From the NCBI GenBank assembly GCA_964429315.1, contig CAYSBQ010000001.1, positions 1 through 54,767 on the forward strand: a stretch of DNA of 54,767 bases. Reading direction: 5' to 3'. A model generated the notes under the pieces. It was not told where the DNA came from. It was given only the letters and a program-made list of their open reading frames with translations, and did no database searches. Below are positions 14,745 to 53,473 of the stretch, piece by piece (the first letter of the stretch is position 1; each line of letters starts with the position of its first letter). The translations under genes and the position numbers were made by a program. Origin of the DNA: an uncultured Desulfobacterales bacterium. GTDB lineage: Bacteria; Desulfobacterota; Desulfobacteria; Desulfobacterales; C00003060.

Positions 14745-15012
14745 TTTGAACCCTCCCTTTGATCTTGTTCAGCAATTCCCCAAGTCTCTTTGAGTCTCCA
14801 TTCGCAAACGCTCGACTAGCCTCGAGCGCGTCACAGACAAGGAGATCGTATTCCTTGATAATCGAATTGGATTCATCGAGCGCTGAACCGAGTAGGGTCA
14901 CCGTTCTTTCGAGCATTATCACCTTATCCGAATCTCTCATCCACCGCGCACAGTAAAGTCCAAGCAGGAAGAACGCGAGCGAAGACAGTACTACGAAAGA
15001 CATGTCAGTCAT
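14713..15012 (-). CDS. Small N-terminally anchored membrane protein (99 aa)
   Basis: MTDMSFVVLSSLAFFLLGLYCARW is a hydrophobic helix. ATGA overlap with the upstream gene. Confidence 0.55.
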   Translation of the reverse strand: MTDMSFVVLSSLAFFLLGLYCARWMRDSDKVIMLERTVTLLGSALDESNSIIKEYDLLVCDALEASRAFANGDSKRLGELLNKIKGRVQNGIEDGNKTA

Positions 15013-15710
15013 GAGACATCCTCTGCATAATTGATGGCCGCCAACCTTGCGTCGTCGAGCGTCCTGATATACTCGGTGCCGTTTTCCTGCGGCGGAGTCC
15101 TAGGCGAATCGAAGGACTCTTCGTATATCATGTCTCCGATACCGAAACCTGCAATCGCTCTATGTGACCATCCGTACCATTTTCTTTCGCGGATACAAAA
15201 GCCTATCGTGCAAACAGAATTACCTGGCTTGGACACCTCTGGATCGATACCCATTTTGTCACAAAGCATTTCGGCAGCGCTCACCTCTCCGATGTAGTCA
15301 CCGGATTTGTTCTGGGCACCTTTCATTGAGAAAGAGTTCGGATTGTGCAGGTCTTCGAAAAGAACGATGTTGTACAACTTCTTTTTCTCGAGGACCGTTA
15401 CTTTGTATGCCCCATCCTGTAGGCTGGCACTGAATACCCTGCACACCTCGTGAAGAACGCCGCTCGTCTTCCATCTCAAGCTGATATTATAATCAACTTC
15501 ATCTTCATCCCTACCAAGGAAGTCGCAATCGATTACGCCTAGGCAATAACCGTGCGCATAGTCAGCGCTCAGTAATTCAGAAGTCGCAATGATGTATGCC
15601 GAGTCGCCGCCGCGTTTCATTCTGGATACACGAACTGATTCACCTTTGAACCCAGGGTGTATCTTACCGGCGATCCATCCGGCTATTTGTTTTCTTTCAT
15701 CTACTTTCAT
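15009..15710 (-). CDS. Hypothetical protein (233 aa)
   Basis: Clean ORF with 4-nt overlaps at both ends. No family recognised. Confidence 0.65.
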   Translation of the reverse strand: MKVDERKQIAGWIAGKIHPGFKGESVRVSRMKRGGDSAYIIATSELLSADYAHGYCLGVIDCDFLGRDEDEVDYNISLRWKTSGVLHEVCRVFSASLQDGAYKVTVLEKKKLYNIVLFEDLHNPNSFSMKGAQNKSGDYIGEVSAAEMLCDKMGIDPEVSKPGNSVCTIGFCIRERKWYGWSHRAIAGFGIGDMIYEESFDSPRTPPQENGTEYIRTLDDARLAAINYAEDVS

Positions 15711-23849: not shown

Positions 23850-24065
23850 TGCTCAGGGTCAGCGCCCGTCTGGCGACTGTCCATCCGCGCGGGAGTGTAG
23901 GTACGCTGCAGTTGCACGTCAACTTCTCATTATGAGGAAATAGATGACGTCTATCACCCCTTCCTCACCCTGCGTAGATCGCGCTTGTTGTCAGCAGGGT
24001 GCCCGCTTGTTAGTCTGCTCGTCCGGCCTTTCCCTTCGACCTCCAACCTCCCTCACGCCCATGAA
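23850..24065. promoter_or_regulatory. Divergent intergenic region between the minus-strand early block and the helicase gene
   Basis: 216 nt are non-coding once the helicase is started at the ATG 24066. Contains the small palindrome CTCAT-t-ATGAG (about 23925-23935). No confident -35/-10 pair identified. Confidence 0.35.
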
Positions 24066-25665: not shown

Positions 25666-28608
25666 ATGGCACCTCCATCTCCAAAATCCCTCCGTGACCT
25701 CGCCCTAAAATGGGTGAAGGCAGGCGTATCAGTCGTACCTATCAAAGCAGATGGCACGAAGTCGCCTGCCGTTACGAAGTGGAAAATTTGGCAATCTCAG
25801 CTTCCCACTGAGGAGGAGATTGATAAGCACTTCAAACCCGGTCTCGGAATCGGAGTCATTGGGGGTGCCATCTCAGGTAATCTTGAGATGCTCGACTTCG
25901 ACGTCCCAAAGGAGAAGACGAATAAGTATCACGGGCACTGCTTCTTCGACGAGTGGATAGAACAGCTTCCATACGAGCTGGTTGAACTCGTCCAGTCGAT
26001 GCCAACGGTTAGCACGCCGGGTGGAGGTGTCCATCTATACTATCGATGTGAAAGTCTCGAGGGGAACACAAAGCTCGCGTGCGTACCTAATCCTCCAGGT
26101 ACGCAGCCTCCGAAGGAGACGATTATTGAGACTCGTGGTGAGGGCGGCTATGTACTCGCGCCGGGATGTCCTCCCGATTGCCATCCTACCGGCAAGACCT
26201 ACGACCTGACGATCGGCAGCTTCGAAGACGTTCCAACTATTACCGGAGAGCAGCGAACCGCATTGTTTGCGATGGCTAGGTCTTTCGATGAAACAGATCT
26301 AGACGGTAAAGAGGCTCGACGGAAAAAGAAGAGCCGCGGAAGCGATAGCCCGACTGCAGAGGGGAACCGTCCCGGTGACGACTATAACAGGAGGGGTGAT
26401 TGGCATGAGTTGCTCGAGCCTCTCGGATGGACGCTTGCATTCACGCGCCGCGATGGCGCGGAGATGTGGTGCCGACCGGGCAAGTCAAAGCGAGATGGTA
26501 TATCCGCTACAGTTCGTGACTTTGAAGGCGTCGAGCTTTTTCACGCATTCGCGTCAAACAGTGATCCATTTCCATCCGAAGAATCGATAACCAAGTTTGC
26601 TGCGTACACGCTCATCTTTCATAACGGTGACTATGAGGCATCAGCAAGGCAACTTGGCAAAGATGGCTATGGCGATCAATCACGGGGAAGAGATTGGGTC
26701 GCCGAAACATTCGAAGCCAAGAGAGACGATGCCGTCCCCTGGGGAGATTCCCCACCAGACATTCGTGAATCAAAGGTAGGCGAAGTCGACTTCGATATGG
26801 AGGGCGACCTATACGACATCCCTTTTTCCATACCGACAAAGACGCCCCCTGAAGCGTCTATCTTTAATGAGGAAATAGATCCACTTGAGTCTCAGGTGAA
26901 TCGGGATAAAGAAGAGAGCCTCAAGGCTAGTGAAGAAAAATCTATCGAGATCAAGTTTAGCAAGCGCGCTCGAATGATGGCCCGAGGTCCAGGCATGCTC
27001 GTCTGGCAAGACTCCGGTGATCCACCTGTAAAAAAATACGTCAAGAAAAAGGGTAACAAGCTCATCAAGACGCACGCGACGCGCCCGCGCAATACAGCTT
27101 GGCATATCCTGAACGATAAATTCTCCGCTGGAGAAAGCATGCGGAAGCTCCATTACCAAAATGGAGAGTTCATCCTTTGGAGAAACGGGAAGTACACGCG
27201 ACTGCGCGACGATAACATTCGAGCGAAGGTCGCAAGCTATCTGACTCACTTCGCCGCCTTCGAGAATAAGGATAAGGAGACAGGCAAAGCGATCTACAAA
27301 GAGTTTGAAGTTCGTAAGCATGCTGTGACGGAGATGATGCAGACGATCATGGATATGTCCGTCGTCGGCGAAGAATACCTGGACCCATGCTGGCTGTGCG
27401 AACCTGAAGAGGATGAAGAGCCCCTGCCGGATCCTCGTGAGATCGTATGCTGCAAAAACGGTCTATTCGACATTGTAAATAGGAAGCTCCTCCCTCCTAC
27501 TCCATCGTTTTATTCGTACACGAATACTGGCATCACCTACGACGAGGACATTGGGGAGCCCGAGGCATGGCTAAATTTTCTTGATACGACACTGGAGGAC
27601 GAGGAGTCGAAGATGCTCTTGCAGGAGTGGTTCGGATACTGCCTCGTGCAGGACACCCGCAAGCAGAAGATGCTCATGGTTGTCGGAAAACCTGGCTCTG
27701 GCAAAGGTACGGCGGTCACTGTTTTGCAATGGCTACTCGGAAAGGGTTCATACTGCTCGATGAGCTTCGAGAAGATTGGTGGAAATTTCGCCATGCAAGT
27801 TGCGCTCGGTAAATCCCTCATGATTTTCCCTGACGCCAGGCAGAGCTTTGGCAACACCAGAGGCGATGTGATCAGCACCCTCCTCTCCGTATCCGGAGAA
27901 GATGACATTTTTATCGATAGAAAAAACGTCCCGCCGGTCACGCAGAAGCTGAACTCGCGGATCATGATCGTCTCGAACGACGTCATCAATCTCTCGGACC
28001 CCTCAGGCGCGCTGAATCGCCGCATGCTCTGGGTCCGATTCCCCGGATTCAGAGGGAAGGAAGACACCAATCTCAAGCGCAAGCTGCAGGGCGAGCTGTC
28101 GGGGATCCTCAACTGGGCCATCGAGGGCTACCACCGGGTCATGGAGACCGGGAAGTTCACAGAGCCCTCGAGCGCCGACTACCTACGAGAGTCCTTCCAG
28201 GAGCAGGCATCCCCCATCAAAGCGTTCCTTGAGGACATGTGCGAGGTAGGCAGCGACTACAGCCAGCCTACGGCGGAGATCTACAAGCACTGGTCCATCT
28301 GGAGAAAACACAAAGGGTACAAAGGCGCCCAAAGTGAGTCCGCATTCGGGAAGCAGTTAATCTCTGCTGACATGAGAATTATCAAAAGAAGGGTTCAGAT
28401 GGGCGGGAAAAGAAAGAAGATATACGTTGGTATATCACTAGACCCAGATAAGGTTCAGGATTTCATCATCGAAAACATTGGTGAGAAATCTTGGGAAAAA
28501 GCAAAAGAAGAATACGATCGACAGAGCAACGCTGACATCATCGATATCTTCGAATGGGCAAGCAAGAAAGATAAGATTGATAAAGCTGCGGATACAGTAG
28601 ATTTCTAA
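25666..28608 (+). CDS. Bifunctional primase-polymerase (prim-pol) fused to a D5/P4-type SF3 helicase
   Basis: The N-terminus WVKAGVSVVPIKADGTKSP...W, LEMLDFD, GGGVHLYYRC and ETRGEGGYVLAPG fits the prim-pol domain. The C-terminus MLMVVGKPGSGKGT (Walker A), MIFPD, IMIVSN and LNRRMLWVRF fits the D5_N/P4 primase-helicase NTPase. Confidence 0.85.
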   Translation: MAPPSPKSLRDLALKWVKAGVSVVPIKADGTKSPAVTKWKIWQSQLPTEEEIDKHFKPGLGIGVIGGAISGNLEMLDFDVPKEKTNKYHGHCFFDEWIEQLPYELVELVQSMPTVSTPGGGVHLYYRCESLEGNTKLACVPNPPGTQPPKETIIETRGEGGYVLAPGCPPDCHPTGKTYDLTIGSFEDVPTITGEQRTALFAMARSFDETDLDGKEARRKKKSRGSDSPTAEGNRPGDDYNRRGDWHELLEPLGWTLAFTRRDGAEMWCRPGKSKRDGISATVRDFEGVELFHAFASNSDPFPSEESITKFAAYTLIFHNGDYEASARQLGKDGYGDQSRGRDWVAETFEAKRDDAVPWGDSPPDIRESKVGEVDFDMEGDLYDIPFSIPTKTPPEASIFNEEIDPLESQVNRDKEESLKASEEKSIEIKFSKRARMMARGPGMLVWQDSGDPPVKKYVKKKGNKLIKTHATRPRNTAWHILNDKFSAGESMRKLHYQNGEFILWRNGKYTRLRDDNIRAKVASYLTHFAAFENKDKETGKAIYKEFEVRKHAVTEMMQTIMDMSVVGEEYLDPCWLCEPEEDEEPLPDPREIVCCKNGLFDIVNRKLLPPTPSFYSYTNTGITYDEDIGEPEAWLNFLDTTLEDEESKMLLQEWFGYCLVQDTRKQKMLMVVGKPGSGKGTAVTVLQWLLGKGSYCSMSFEKIGGNFAMQVALGKSLMIFPDARQSFGNTRGDVISTLLSVSGEDDIFIDRKNVPPVTQKLNSRIMIVSNDVINLSDPSGALNRRMLWVRFPGFRGKEDTNLKRKLQGELSGILNWAIEGYHRVMETGKFTEPSSADYLRESFQEQASPIKAFLEDMCEVGSDYSQPTAEIYKHWSIWRKHKGYKGAQSESAFGKQLISADMRIIKRRVQMGGKRKKIYVGISLDPDKVQDFIIENIGEKSWEKAKEEYDRQSNADIIDIFEWASKKDKIDKAADTVDF

Positions 28609-28639
28609 AGGCATAGTATGCCCATTAAACGAAGGCTGT

Positions 28640-28670
28640 AGAGCTGACCCGAAAGTGTCAGCTCTTTTTT
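28640..28670 (+). terminator. Intrinsic terminator after the primase-helicase gene
   Basis: AGAGCTGAC (28640-28648) pairs with GTCAGCTCT (28657-28665) around an 8-nt loop, followed by TTTTTT. Confidence 0.7.
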
Positions 28671-28799
28671 ATTGCTTAGATTTAACGATTCCTCGATCTT
28701 TAGCCAGGTGGACCCCGGCGCGTCTGCCGCAATATGGGCACCCCCGGGTAAGGCCGAAACTGAAATCTATCGTTTAAAATCTAGTGATTTAAATTGAAG

Positions 28800-29121
28800 T
28801 GGCCCACTTGGAACGAAGGGTTAGAAACCGCTCTGCATGTGCACTGATCGTTCTATTGGTTCATTTTCGTAGTGAATGTGCAAATTGCACCAGGTGGCCC
28901 ACTTGGTGGCCCACCAGTGGCCTAGGACGCTATTCACGCACTTATTCTATTTTTGGACAGCTATATATATATTAAACACTGTATGGCCTAGGTGGCCTAG
29001 GTGGCCTAGGAGTTTGTAAGTAGCCTATAACCAGAGGCCGAATTTCGAAGGCCCCCTACCCCCTTTCCCTGTGTTTCAGCTACAATTGGAATTACCTAGG
29101 CCACCTGGGCCACCTAGGCCA
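28800..29121. repeat. Iteron-like repeat field (TGGCCYA core) with an AT-rich (TA)n stretch; candidate replication origin
   Basis: Direct TGGCCYA copies start at 28800, 28895, 28907, 28918, 28984, 28993 and 29002; the last three form three contiguous perfect 9-mers TGGCCTAGG. Three contiguous inverted 9-mers CCTAGGCCA/CCTGGGCCA/CCTAGGCCA lie at 29095-29121. TATATATATAT lies within 28961-28978, and the palindrome GTGCAA-a-TTGCAC at 28878-28890. Confidence 0.6.
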
Positions 29122-29380
29122 CTCCCGCAATTCGCGCAGGCTTTTTACGCTGAACGCGCACGTGCTTCCAAAAGAGGGATCACAGAAAATAAGGAAAAAA
29201 ACAGAGATAAAACAGAGATAATTCTCAGCCACTGTTTGATCACGTCAGCTAACCGTTAAAAAATCGGAGAGCCCGAAGGGTGACAAAAGGGTTAGAAATA
29301 TGCCCGGTCCCAAATTGGGACTATTATTTCCACTCGAATCCCTTGCGCAAGCGAACCATCTGAGTGACGGTTTCGAGTGA

Positions 29381-29710
29381 ATGGAATCCTTCGCTCAGGG
29401 GGAACCTCTAGTGGTAAAGGTGAAACGTCTAAGCGCTGAGGATATCGTCCGTCGAAAAGACAGGCAGCTAGAATGCCCTCGCTGTTGGAGGTCGATGCGG
29501 TACAAACCTGTACCAGATCGAATGGCCAAGTGGTCCCCGGGGCCTTATGCTTGGCGGTGCCCGTTTTGCTCAGTCGTTTTCCTCGACGGTTCGATAGACC
29601 CAAACGAGAGGACGTGGGATCACCGAATCAAGGAAGACGGCAAAAGGAGAATCTCGAGCTACCTCTCGTCGATTTTGAGAAGCCACAAAAAAAGTGAGCC
29701 CGAGAACTAA
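29381..29710 (+). CDS. Possible zinc-ribbon protein (109 aa)
   Basis: CPRC...(26 aa)...CPFC and a basic C-terminus. The SD is weak and the ORF lies in a repeat-containing region, so the call is tentative. Confidence 0.45.
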   Translation: MESFAQGEPLVVKVKRLSAEDIVRRKDRQLECPRCWRSMRYKPVPDRMAKWSPGPYAWRCPFCSVVFLDGSIDPNERTWDHRIKEDGKRRISSYLSSILRSHKKSEPEN

Positions 29711-29826
29711 ATCCCGGGCCCACTTGGCCTTTACCTCAAACATCAAGACCTCCTCTCGATGCCCGTAAGCATGTAGAGTCTATACTGACTCATAGAGTAG
29801 TCAAGCAGAAAGAAGAAGAAGGGAAA

Positions 29827-48546: not shown

Positions 48547-48562
48547 CCGGCCAGCCCACTTG

Positions 48563-53005: not shown

Positions 53006-53473
53006 ATGGCAAAAAGCGCAGCACCACTACTACTTCTCGGCGGAGCCGCCTTGTTGCTTGTGAGCAGCAAGAAGAAAAAGAAATCGTCGAACAACGTATG
53101 CACGATCGCTCGTTCATACGAAGAGTTCAAAGCGATTCTCGACAGTAACGAGCGCGTCGAATACCCTGTTTCGTTTATCTTTTACCCGGATGGCGAAGAG
53201 GCTCGAGGTGAGCAACTTTGCAAGACCCTCGCTCCGCAAGGAATCCGCACGCTTGTTGTCAGCGCCGCGAACGAGGCCAAGTGGGCCTATGAGATGTTGG
53301 ATTCTGGAATGCTCCAACCAGGCAGTGCGCTGCCTGGGGTAGATGAGATGAAGAAAAAGGCTGAGGGTGTATGGATCGTTTACAGCGCCAGCGACACTCA
53401 AACCGGGATACCCTGGGACTCGATACCGTGGGATAACACAAAATCGATTCTCAGCATTCTGAAGGGGCTATAA
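53006..53473 (+). CDS. GG-helix/poly-Lys module protein (155 aa)
   Basis: MAKSAAPLLLLGGAALLLVSSKKKKKSS. TAGGAG SD. Confidence 0.75.
   Translation: MAKSAAPLLLLGGAALLLVSSKKKKKSSNNVCTIARSYEEFKAILDSNERVEYPVSFIFYPDGEEARGEQLCKTLAPQGIRTLVVSAANEAKWAYEMLDSGMLQPGSALPGVDEMKKKAEGVWIVYSASDTQTGIPWDSIPWDNTKSILSILKGL

What the first reader, a model, noticed from the sequence alone, without database searches (positions are those of the whole stretch)
28609..29826. A 1.2-kb largely non-coding region with an iteron field, inverted iteron triplets and a (TA)n stretch: candidate origin of replication or master regulatory hub
This region lies between the primase-helicase terminator and the first late gene. The TGGCCYA core occurs as seven direct copies, starting at 28800, 28895, 28907, 28918, 28984, 28993 and 29002. 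The last three are a perfect contiguous 3 x TGGCCTAGG.

Three contiguous inverted copies lie 84 nt further on (29095-29121), so the two triplets face each other.

The 11-mer GGCCCACTTGG is exact at 28801, 28896 and 29717. A one-mismatch inverted copy lies at 29524-29536, and GCCCACTTG recurs at 48554, just upstream of gene 48563.

A TATATATATAT-containing AT-rich stretch (28931-28980) lies immediately left of the direct triplet, and the palindrome GTGCAA-a-TTGCAC is at 28878-28890.

Iterons next to an AT-rich unwinding element, adjacent to the initiator/primase gene, form a classic origin architecture. The extra copies near late-gene starts could instead be operator sites for a transcription factor.
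Basis: partly seen in the sequence, partly recalled or inferred. Interest (0 to 1): 0.62.

Follow-up and report, generated by a model that had tools for sequence, protein, structure and literature searches.

The report
Iteron replication origin beside primase-helicase
The repeat-filled gap just after this uncultured virus's primase-helicase gene is most likely the replication origin, where that enzyme's own DNA-binding tail docks; this is a known kind of device, seen here in a new virus group.

Summary
The repeats are real and far beyond chance. Ten of the 19 TGGCCYA copies in 54.8 kb lie within 322 bp, and this is the only such cluster in the 3-Mb bin.

Sixteen related metagenomic viruses (primase-helicase 50-79% identical) keep the same layout after the gene's terminator:
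- three phased direct sites;
- about 55 bp of easily melted DNA;
- three contiguous 9-bp direct sites;
- an ~84-bp spacer;
- three inverted sites.

The 9-bp word itself changes between lineages (at least nine words).

The word changes in step with one residue (918) in the wing of the enzyme's C-terminal winged-helix domain. The model of this domain resembles RFX1 and the phage P4 origin-binding domain. A distant branch of the family shows the same link: ACCGTC goes with D/N and ACTGTC with Q/M/L, on the same wing strand.

Among 174 distant homologues, 52% carry an iteron cluster right after the gene, against 0.7% of background windows.

Best reading: a SaPI/P4/pRN1-type origin bound by the self-loading primase-helicase (confidence about 0.75).

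- The "extra copies" at 29717 and 29524 are a covarying hairpin arm and coding sequence of a conserved zinc-ribbon gene.
- 330 nt of the region are therefore coding.

Verdict: a new member of a known kind.

The parts
25666..28608 (+). Initiator gene of 980 aa. Domains: N-terminal PrimPol, D5_N, SF3 (D5-type) helicase, and a C-terminal winged-helix domain (about residues 855-930, nt 28228-28455). The specificity-linked wing residue K918 is at nt 28417-28419.
   Evidence: - Pfam: Prim-Pol 1e-13, DUF5906 7e-12, D5_N 6e-6, weak RFX_DNA_binding and Pox_D5.
- PDB 7OLA (a chain the PDB calls 'DNA primase'; from memory the SaPI5 PriRep structure), E 1.1e-9.
- AF2 model and Foldseek: 1DP7, 8ZJR, 1KA8.
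- Covariation.
28620..28626 (+). [quoted passage not shown] Close relatives have a good site at this position (+14/15).
28640..28672 (+). Intrinsic terminator of the primase-helicase operon.
   Evidence: 9-bp stem followed by TTTTTT. A terminator sits at the same place in relatives.
28799..28811 (+). Solitary site GTGGCCCACTTGG. It lies inside a ~220-nt stretch (28672-28890) that the closest relatives lack.
28894..28926 (+). Array A: three direct sites spaced 12 and 11 nt apart (GTGGCCCACTTGG, GTGGCCCACCAG, GTGGCCTAGG).
   Evidence: Relatives have it at the same position and spacing.
28927..28983 (.). A-B spacer. It contains the constant box ATTCACGCA (28932-28940; ATCGCGCA in relatives), the (TA)n run, and the constant box TTAAACACTGT (28972-28982). 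It is the least stable duplex of the contig and a candidate unwinding element.
28984..29010 (+). Array B: three contiguous direct 9-bp sites (TGGCCTAGG x3).
   Evidence: Present in all 16 relatives, each with its lineage-specific word.
29011..29094 (.). 84-bp spacer between the facing arrays, ending in the constant box CAATTGG (29083-29089). It is AT-rich in most relatives (0.51-0.67, against a locus mean of 0.41-0.56).
29095..29121 (-). Array C: three contiguous inverted 9-bp sites.
   Evidence: The start-to-start distance from B to C is 110-114 bp in most relatives.
29184..29224 (.). AT-rich stretch (78% AT) to the right of array C, with an 11-nt tandem repeat AAAACAGAGAT x2.2. Seven relatives also have their most AT-rich 40-mer about 200 nt after the start of B.
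29307..29367 (+). Not part of the iteron field. It holds the conserved palindrome GTCCCAAaTTGGGAC and the conserved box TTGCGC-N12-TGAGTGA, upstream of the zinc-ribbon gene. It is a candidate promoter or operator.
29381..29710 (+). Conserved 109-aa zinc-ribbon gene (two CxxC motifs; MAxWSPxPYAW).
29692..29725 (+). Conserved hairpin spanning the stop codon of the zinc-ribbon gene.
   Evidence: 10 of 11 pairs show compensatory changes across 15 relatives.

Best explanation
The 28.6-29.25 kb gap is the virus's replication origin, or one of its origins. It is of the 'rep-ori' type used by self-loading SF3 primase-helicases.

Proposed sequence of events:
1. The early operon ends at the terminator at 28640-28672.
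2. The 980-aa PrimPol/SF3 helicase binds the short sites GTGGCCYA(G)G through the beta-hairpin wing of its C-terminal RFX/P4-alpha-type winged-helix domain.
3. Three site sets are used: array A (phased about one helical turn apart), array B (contiguous, 9-bp period) and array C (the mirror image of B, 84 bp away).
4. Assemblies facing each other on B and C, helped by A, melt the neighbouring low-stability DNA. Candidates are the A-B spacer in this genome, and the B-C spacer or the AT-rich patch right of C in relatives.
5. The helicase loads itself, and its PrimPol domain makes the first primers.

Shown here: the sequence anatomy, its conservation, the change of word between lineages, the covariation with the wing, and the family-wide link between gene and repeats.

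Inferred: binding, melting, loading and origin firing.
For: 1. Clustering far beyond chance, unique in the contig and in the bin.

2. Sixteen relatives (primase-helicase 50-79% identical) keep the same order and distances after the terminator:
- site at +14;
- array A at +108/120/132;
- array B at +196/205/214;
- array C at +306/315/324;
- constant boxes ATCGCGCA, TTAAACACTGT and CAATTGG.
The word itself differs between lineages: TGGCCYAGG, TGSCATAGG, TGGTATAGG, TGTCCCTAG, TGTCCCC, GGTCCTAG, TGTCCATAG, TGTCCAGGG, TGTCCARTG, GGTCATAGG.

3. Residue 918 lies in wing strand beta-3, between invariant R916 and Y920.
- It ranks first of about 960 alignment columns for association with the word.
- It is the only column that differs in all 8 nearest different-word contrasts while staying conserved in all 5 same-word groups.
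- L088 and L245 are otherwise distant but share both Y918 and the word TGTCCC.

4. Independent replicate in a distant subfamily: 15 loci with ACCGTC iterons have D/N and 15 with ACTGTC have Q/M/L at the wing column aligned to residue 916. This is the only column of the tail-domain alignment with disjoint residue sets.

5. The neighbouring zinc-ribbon protein shows no such column.

6. Among 174 distant homologues, 52% have 5 or more copies of a 7-mer in the 400 nt beginning at the gene's stop. Only 0.7% of 37,798 background windows do. Direct and inverted sets occur there too.

7. Structure of the tail domain:
- The model (pLDDT 80-90 in the winged-helix core) matches RFX1-DNA 1DP7 (E 3.7e-4, TM 0.79) and the P4 origin-binding domain 1KA8 (probability 0.99).
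- The helicase plus tail match PDB chain 7OLA (listed as 'DNA primase'; from memory the SaPI5 PriRep structure) at E 1e-9.

8. Literature:
- SaPI origins lie immediately downstream of rep, with iterons on both sides of an AT-rich centre pointing in opposite directions, read by the C-terminal winged helix (PMC9371898).
- pRN1 ORF904 has the same PrimPol-SF3-winged-helix order, and its origin lies after the gene's terminator (PMC2777425 and PMC4234260).
- In RFX1 the wing reads the major groove (PMC4333399).

9. The gap holds the least stable duplex of the contig, and it lies between a terminator and the next promoter-like box.
Against: - There is no experimental or replication-mapping evidence. 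Only assembled contigs of public runs were available, so coverage could not be used.
- GC skew follows gene orientation. Its sign change is at about 23.9 kb, 5 kb to the left, not at the field. The contig is only about a quarter of a genome of roughly 200 kb.
- The position of the most AT-rich stretch is not fixed among relatives. In this genome the B-C spacer is only 51% AT.
- The covariation rests on 17 sequences and 9 words, and the tail domain lies next to the repeats on the DNA, so joint inheritance contributes. The signal does not separate every pair: N/Q serve two different words.
- One relative (L253) has no field directly after the gene.
- Binding by the winged helix would also fit autoregulation of the operon.
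Confidence: 0.75

Rival explanations
1. Operator array or regulatory hub. The sites bind a transcription factor, or the primase-helicase acting only as an autorepressor. This would control the end of the early operon and the start of the zinc-ribbon and late genes, without origin function.
For: - The field lies at the early/late boundary.
- One site lies in the 3' untranslated end of the operon, before the terminator.
- A conserved palindrome and a promoter-like box follow within 200 nt.
Against: - The word is confined to this one place in 54.8 kb and in the bin.
- The supposed copies near late genes are a hairpin arm, coding sequence or isolated matches.
- The same gene-plus-repeats link holds in 174 distant elements with quite different neighbours.
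- The arrays lie between a terminator and the next promoter-like box rather than over a promoter.
- The zinc-ribbon protein does not covary with the word.
Confidence: 0.1
2. Another cis-acting DNA site built from repeats: a partition centromere (parC/parS/tubC type), a packaging signal, or arm-type sites of an integrase attachment site.
For: These sites are also clusters of short direct and inverted repeats, with lineage-specific words that coevolve with a binding protein.
Against: - Pfam finds no ParA, ParM, TubZ, ParB, integrase or terminase among 78 ORFs of the contig.
- The spacer that would hold an attachment core is not conserved, even in the closest relative.
- The covarying protein is the replicase's own winged helix.
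- The position immediately after the replicase gene is conserved family-wide.
Confidence: 0.07
3. A structural element. The 27-nt arms pair as a long hairpin in a transcript, or as a cruciform in DNA, and the fold rather than the individual sites is what is recognised. This is what was proposed for pRN1.
For: - The fold-back is strong in this genome: -40 kcal/mol, z -7.4. It is also strong in L243 and L247.
- In pRN1 the integrity of a stem-loop of about 100 bp after the replicase gene is required (PMC4234260).
Against: - Arm-to-arm complementarity is not conserved: 13-26 of 27 in relatives, with z falling to -3.1 and -1.3. Site number, orientation and position are kept nonetheless.
- There is no Rfam match.
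- The field lies downstream of a strong terminator.
- Arrays A and the +14 site have no partner arm.
Confidence: 0.08

Closest known systems
SaPI (Staphylococcus aureus pathogenicity island) replication modules: Pri, Rep or fused PriRep5, plus ori
   Same: - A primase plus an SF3 self-loading helicase with a C-terminal winged helix.
- The origin lies immediately downstream of the gene.
- It is made of 6-12 short iterons in two sets of opposite orientation around a central region.
- The word is specific to each element (PMC9371898).
- Direct sequence similarity of the helicase and tail to PDB chain 7OLA, which I recall as the SaPI5 PriRep structure (E 1e-9).
   Different: - The primase here is a PrimPol (archaeo-eukaryotic type).
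- The words are 9 bp rather than 5-6 bp.
- There are three arrays with fixed distances, plus three constant boxes.
- The AT-richest stretch lies beside the facing arrays rather than between them in this genome.
- The carrier is a large virus (relatives are on contigs of 193 and 221 kb), not a 15-kb satellite.
Satellite phage P4: alpha protein with ori and crr
   Same: [quoted passage not shown]
- The tail model matches the solved P4 origin-binding domain 1KA8.
- Short iterons occur in direct and inverted orientation (from my own knowledge of P4).
   Different: - P4 alpha has a DnaG/Toprim primase.
- P4 needs a second site (crr) 4.5 kb away. No second array was found in the 54.8 kb or in the bin, though most of the genome is missing.
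pRN1 ORF904 and its downstream stem-loop origin (Sulfolobus plasmid), with the similar elements noted in phages such as BIP-1
   Same: - Identical domain order: PrimPol, D5_N/SF3, then a winged helix with the same two weak Pfam matches (PF03288 and PF02257).
- A terminator follows, then an inverted-repeat element of about 100-140 bp whose sequence differs between relatives (PMC2777425 and PMC4234260).
   Different: - In pRN1 the fold itself was reported as essential, and no iterons or specific binding were found.
- Here the arms are plainly arrays of 9-bp sites, and the fold decays in relatives while the sites persist.
RFX1 DNA-binding domain (1DP7)
   Same: - It is the best structural match to the tail domain (TM 0.79, rmsd 2.2 A), and the only profile match in the PDB (E 0.018).
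- In RFX1 the wing reads the major groove (PMC4333399). That fits the word-linked residues lying in wing strand beta-3.
   Different: RFX1 is a eukaryotic transcription factor. The resemblance concerns the fold and the probable reading mode only.

Membership tests
Rep-ori modules of self-loading SF3 primase-helicases (SaPI, P4, pRN1 type) | The initiator is an SF3/D5-type helicase fused or adjacent to a primase. | tested here: met
   Pfam Prim-Pol, D5_N and DUF5906. PHROG DNA primase families. PDB chain 7OLA ('DNA primase'; from memory SaPI5 PriRep), E 1.1e-9.
Rep-ori modules of self-loading SF3 primase-helicases (SaPI, P4, pRN1 type) | A C-terminal winged-helix origin-binding domain. | tested here: met
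   - By prediction only: the AF2 model has a winged-helix core at pLDDT 80-90.
- Foldseek: 1DP7 at 3.7e-4, 8ZJR at 5.6e-4, and 1KA8 (P4 origin-binding domain) at 0.025 with probability 0.99.
- Weak Pfam matches to RFX_DNA_binding and Pox_D5.
Rep-ori modules of self-loading SF3 primase-helicases (SaPI, P4, pRN1 type) | A cluster of short iterons immediately downstream of the initiator gene. | tested here: met
   Found in 16 close relatives. Found in 52% of 174 distant homologues against 0.7% of background windows.
Rep-ori modules of self-loading SF3 primase-helicases (SaPI, P4, pRN1 type) | Iteron sets of opposite orientation on either side of an AT-rich region. | tested here: inconclusive
   - Opposite orientation of arrays B and C is conserved.
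- The spacer between them is AT-enriched in most relatives but only 51% AT here.
- The least stable DNA of the contig lies between A and B, and a 78% AT patch lies right of C.
Rep-ori modules of self-loading SF3 primase-helicases (SaPI, P4, pRN1 type) | Iteron word and initiator DNA-binding domain are matched, giving element-specific pairs. | tested here: met
   Residue 918 in the wing. Independent replicate at the column aligned to residue 916 in a distant subfamily. Negative control with the zinc-ribbon protein.
Rep-ori modules of self-loading SF3 primase-helicases (SaPI, P4, pRN1 type) | The initiator binds the iterons, and the fragment supports initiator-dependent replication. | not testable with these tools
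   This needs EMSA or footprinting and an origin-plasmid or replication-mapping experiment.
Classical iteron plasmid origins (RepA, pi, TrfA class) | 17-22-bp direct iterons bound by a Rep_3-type (WH1-WH2) initiator, with DnaA boxes and AT-rich 13-mers. | tested here: not met
   The sites are 9 bp. No Rep_3-type protein was found among 78 ORFs. The initiator is a primase-helicase. DnaA boxes were not scanned for.
pRN1-type stem-loop origin | A conserved fold-back of about 100 bp after the replicase terminator, with the fold rather than the sequence conserved. | tested here: inconclusive
   The fold-back is strong here (z -7.4) and in some relatives, but weak or absent in others (z -3.1 and -1.3). 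Arm complementarity is 13-26 of 27.
Partition centromeres (parC, parS, tubC) | Repeat array next to a ParA/ParM/TubZ gene plus a centromere-binding protein gene. | tested here: not met
   No such Pfam family was found among 78 ORFs of the contig. The rest of the genome was not available.
Known structured RNA families (Rfam) | A match to a curated covariance model. | tested here: not met
   No match at gathering threshold anywhere in the window. No tRNA or tmRNA.

The most novel reading that the evidence does not exclude
This virus clade may be a natural library of orthogonal origin-initiator pairs.

- One or two side chains on one face of the winged-helix wing strand (positions 916 and 918) would set which 9-bp word is read. 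That would give a simple, transplantable recognition code for RFX/P4-type origin-binding domains.
- The words would diversify because related viruses meet in the same cells and must not fire, or be hijacked at, each other's origins.
- Consistent with this, contigs with different words come from the same samples: Ga0114919 gave L084 and L091, Ga0209986 gave L083 and L096, and SDBT01 gave L085 and L092.

It would also reinterpret pRN1-type 'stem-loop origins' as facing iteron arrays.
Probability: 0.25. Interest if true: 0.6.

Novelty: new member of a known kind. Interest (0 to 1): 0.4.

Why it matters
It gives a first, testable map of where and how an undescribed group of large viruses starts DNA replication. 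These viruses are probably membrane-containing; relatives sit on contigs of 193 and 221 kb, and their helicase homologues lie mostly in Planctomycetota genomes.

The comparative series pairs at least nine iteron words with residues of one wing strand. A clean single-base, single-residue pairing also appears in a distant branch: C with D/N, T with Q/M/L. Together these make a ready-made experiment on how RFX/P4-type winged helices of replication initiators read DNA. They could also yield orthogonal origin-initiator pairs as tools.

The device itself is classical, and this scan has met it many times.

Tried and rejected
- Rfam and tRNA scans of the window found nothing.
- DNA search of the region against 50,697 phage records found no match.
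- IMG/VR and GTDB genome scans with the primase-helicase gave only distant relatives, at most 41% identical. They were useful only for the family-wide test.
- Read-coverage and termini test: all 20 runs holding the region are kept as assembled contigs. These break at the repeats and carry no local depth, so this was a dead end.
- GC skew follows gene orientation and the contig is partial, so it is uninformative.
- A whole-record search of the 221-kb relative for a second array was not possible, because the record is not held.
- Fixed-difference partition of the primase between TGGCCYA and TGGTATA lineages gave only 5 scattered columns. The signal became clear only with more relatives and a contrast-based test.
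- The zinc-ribbon protein as the iteron reader was rejected, because no column covaries.
- An invertible segment between the inverted arrays was rejected. In the aligned relatives the CAATTGG box, or its variant, always lies next to array C.
- The divergent promoter gap at 23850-23984 as an alternative origin: no repeats there.
- One ORF of the contig has a strong HTH_23 match. Two further Pfam calls did not locate it, so it remains an untested alternative binder.
Full report
**1. The observation**

- TGGCCYA occurs 19 times in the window on both strands, against 9.6 +/- 3.3 in shuffles. Ten copies lie between 28800 and 29121.
- With the flanking G (GTGGCCYA), 9 of the 10 window copies are in the field.
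- In the whole 3.02-Mb bin to which the contig belongs, this is the only place with four or more copies in 400 nt.
- The sites form three arrays:
  - A: 28894-28926, spacing 12 and 11 nt;
  - B: 28984-29010, three contiguous 9-mers;
  - C: 29095-29121, three contiguous inverted 9-mers.
- B and C are 26 of 27 complementary, with 84 nt between them.
- A solitary copy identical to A1 lies at 28799-28811.
- The gap 28609-29380 is the largest gene-free stretch of the contig.
- It contains the least stable 40-mer duplex of the contig (28941) and three of the four most AT-rich 40-mers (28761, 28942, 29184).

**2. The setting**

The window is a whole contig with open ends and no terminal repeat. It is a fragment of a virus-like genome whose proteins are mostly unknown to PHROGs.

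- Earlier agents of this scan described jelly-roll capsid-type genes and membrane-anchored proteins further right. I did not re-test that.
- Relatives lie on contigs of 193 kb and 221 kb, so the window is perhaps a quarter of the genome.
- The contig's G+C (53.0%) differs from the rest of the bin (47.5%), so the binning says little about the host.
- The nearest cellular homologues of the helicase are overwhelmingly in Planctomycetota genomes.

To the left of the field lie a ResIII helicase gene and a 980-aa gene with these domains:
- Prim-Pol, D5_N and DUF5906 (SF3 helicase);
- weak C-terminal matches to RFX_DNA_binding and Pox_D5.

That gene ends in a strong intrinsic terminator at 28640-28672.

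**3. Relatives: same geometry, different word**

A metagenome scan, a protein search and contig look-ups gave 16 independent loci. Their primase-helicase is 50-79% identical to the window's.

All have the same order after the terminator. In the closest group the coordinates relative to the stop codon are almost identical:
- one site at +14/15, before the terminator;
- array A at +108/120/132;
- array B at +196/205/214;
- array C at +306/315/324.

The window differs by an extra stretch of about 220 nt that carries the solitary site.

Three short boxes stay constant: ATCGCGCA after A, TTAAACACTGT before B, and CAATTGG before C.

The repeated word does not stay constant. The words seen are TGGCCYAGG, TGSCATAGG, TGGTATAGG, TGTCCCTAG, TGTCCCC, GGTCCTAG, TGTCCATAG, TGTCCAGGG, TGTCCARTG and GGTCATAGG.

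L089 and L090 have nearly identical flanks and 93% identical primase-helicases, yet they have different words.

Constant architecture with a changing word is the signature of binding sites that coevolve with a specific protein.

**4. Sites, not a hairpin**

- The near-perfect complementarity of B and C in this genome is not conserved. In relatives the best register gives 13-26 of 27.
- The single-strand fold-back ranges from z -8.3 to z -1.3.
- Site number, orientation and position persist regardless.
- There is no Rfam match, and the field lies behind a terminator.
- Cruciform extrusion may still help in some members, as claimed for pRN1, but it is not what is conserved.

**5. Which protein reads the word**

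I aligned the primase-helicases of 17 loci with known words.

- Residue 918 is the top column of about 960 for association with the word.
- It is the only column that differs in all eight nearest different-word contrasts while being conserved (N/Q allowed) in all five same-word groups.
- The pairings are:

| Residue at 918 | Word |
|---|---|
| K | TGGCCYA |
| N/Q | TGGTATA and TGTCCATA |
| T | TGSCATA |
| Y | TGTCCC |
| W | GGTCCTA |
| P | GGTCATA |
| R | TGTCCARTG |
| N | TGTCCAGG |

- Y with TGTCCC occurs in two otherwise distant proteins.
- Eleven of the 23 columns that change in at least 7 contrasts lie in the last 10% of the protein.
- Residue 918 sits between invariant R916 and Y920.

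The structure of the tail domain:
- An AlphaFold model of residues 806-980 has pLDDT 80-90 in the core. In it this segment is the second strand of the beta-hairpin wing of a winged-helix domain.
- The model's best PDB matches are RFX1 bound to DNA (1DP7, TM 0.79), RFX5, and the phage P4 origin-binding domain 1KA8.
- A sequence profile also finds 1DP7.
- In RFX1 it is the wing that reads the major groove (PMC4333399).

As a control, the zinc-ribbon protein encoded just downstream shows no such column, although it is more divergent.

**6. Family-wide tests**

I collected 174 more distant loci, 23-41% identical in the helicase and tail. Most are prophage-like elements and viral contigs with unrelated neighbours.

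- In 91 of them (52%), at least five copies of a 7-mer occur in a 400-nt window beginning at the gene's stop codon.
- In 120 of them (69%), at least four copies occur.
- Of 37,798 background windows in the same loci, 0.7% and 3.9% reach those counts. The downstream value is a maximum over about ten overlapping windows, so a fair background is at most a few per cent.
- Their layouts again combine direct and inverted sets around a spacer.

Within this distant set there is a clean natural experiment.
- Fifteen loci with ACCGTC iterons have D or N at the wing column aligned to window residue 916.
- Fifteen loci with ACTGTC iterons have Q, M or L there.
- This is the only column of the tail alignment with disjoint residue sets.
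- A carboxylate or amide opposite C, and an aliphatic side chain opposite the methyl group of T, is what major-groove reading would predict. This last point is my inference.

**7. Comparison with known systems**

- **SaPI.** The origin lies immediately downstream of rep. It has 6-12 short iterons, half on each side of an AT-rich centre and pointing in opposite directions. They are read by the winged helix at the C-terminus of a self-loading helicase that needs no loader (PMC9371898). The window's protein matches PDB chain 7OLA, listed as 'DNA primase' and, from memory, the SaPI5 PriRep structure, at E 1e-9.
- **pRN1.** ORF904 has the same PrimPol, SF3 and winged-helix order, with the same two weak Pfam matches. 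Its essential cis element is an inverted repeat of about 100 bp after the terminator of the gene, and similar elements are noted in phages (PMC2777425 and PMC4234260).
- **P4.** The alpha protein with ori and crr is the third analogue.

The present element fits this kind. It differs in:
- the 9-bp word;
- the three-array geometry with fixed distances;
- the constant boxes;
- the placement of the most meltable DNA;
- its carrier.

This scan has already recorded many iteron arrays after primase-helicase genes in other genomes.

**8.

- **Zinc-ribbon gene.** 29381-29710 encodes a 109-aa protein (CxxC...CxxC, MAxWSPxPYAW) conserved in all relatives. The inverted 'copy' at 29526 is the codons for MAKWSP.
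- **Hairpin.** The 'copy' at 29717 is the 3' arm of a hairpin spanning that gene's stop codon. Ten of its 11 pairs show compensatory changes in 15 relatives, and the arm sequence does not follow the local iteron word.
- **Isolated matches.** The 9-mer at 48554 and the 11-mer at 53277(-) are isolated.
- **Palindrome.** The palindrome at 28878 is not conserved.
- **Other conserved elements.** A conserved palindrome (29307-29321) and a conserved box TTGCGC-N12-TGAGTGA precede the zinc-ribbon gene. An invariant AGTCAAG box precedes the next gene. These are probably expression signals.

**9. Verdict**

It has not been tested by experiment.

- I put 0.75 on 'origin bound by the primase-helicase's winged helix'.
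- I put about 0.85 on the narrower claim that the arrays are that protein's cognate sites.
- Rivals: operator only, another cis site, or a fold-only element. Together they hold the rest.
- It is a new member of a known kind, of moderate interest mainly for the recognition-code series and for the unknown virus group that carries it.

Noticed in passing
window 29381-29710 (+): A conserved 109-aa zinc-ribbon protein (two CxxC pairs, motif MAxWSPxPYAW, basic C-terminus). It is present after the origin in every relative down to 50% primase identity. It has no Pfam or PHROG match. It may be a small late-gene regulator.
   Followed up: partly
window 29692-29725: A hairpin spanning the stop codon of the zinc-ribbon gene, with compensatory changes in 10 of 11 pairs across 15 relatives. 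It is preceded by an A-run and has no T-run on the + strand. Read on the - strand it looks like an intrinsic terminator, although no - strand gene lies upstream of it.
   Followed up: partly
window 29307-29367: The palindrome GTCCCAAaTTGGGAC is conserved in seven of the closer relatives. The box TTGCGC-N12-TGAGTGA lies about 15 nt before the zinc-ribbon ATG. Together they may be a promoter and operator, or the terminator of a short transcript.
   Followed up: partly
window 29799-29826: AGTCAAG is invariant (the last base in at least 90%) in the 15 aligned relatives. It is followed by a purine-rich leader directly upstream of the start of gene 29827. The combination occurs only once in the window.
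   Followed up: partly
window 28816-28827 and 29287-29298: The 12-mer AAGGGTTAGAAA occurs exactly twice in the window, as direct repeats 471 bp apart that bracket the core origin. It is absent from all relatives except the identical contig L095. It may be a trace of the event that added the window-specific ~220 nt (28672-28890).
   Followed up: partly
L245 (193-kb contig) and L247 (221,287-bp contig, record name ending in _c): Relatives with the same AAA, ResIII, PrimPol, origin and capsid-type gene order lie on contigs of about 200 kb. The virus is therefore probably jumbo-sized, and the window is only a part of it.
   Followed up: no
L245 13370-13400, L247 13300-13340, L251 6310-6345, L249 3470-3505, L097 1620-1660: The more distant members carry a fourth cluster of inverted sites about 90-100 nt beyond array C. 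The window lacks it.
   Followed up: no
whole contig against the rest of the bin: Contig C1 has 53.0% G+C and the other 290 contigs have 47.5%, so its membership in this bin is doubtful. Homologues of the helicase lie mostly in Planctomycetota genomes, including the cultured Fontivita pretiosa and Singulisphaera.
   Followed up: partly
window 15009-15710 (-): The C-terminal half of this 233-aa early-region protein matches Pfam Tad6, a type I Thoeris inhibitor, at E 5.8e-34. L247 has a homologous gene. It is a candidate anti-defence gene.
   Followed up: no
L163-L242, L008-L082, L098-L162 (distant homologues): [quoted passage not shown] A single wing residue tracks a single iteron base: ACCGTC with D/N, ACTGTC with Q/M/L.
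   Followed up: yes
metagenome samples Ga0114919, Ga0209986, SDBT01: Each of these samples yielded two related viruses with different iteron words (L084 and L091; L083 and L096; L085 and L092). Lineages with different origin specificities therefore coexist.
   Followed up: no
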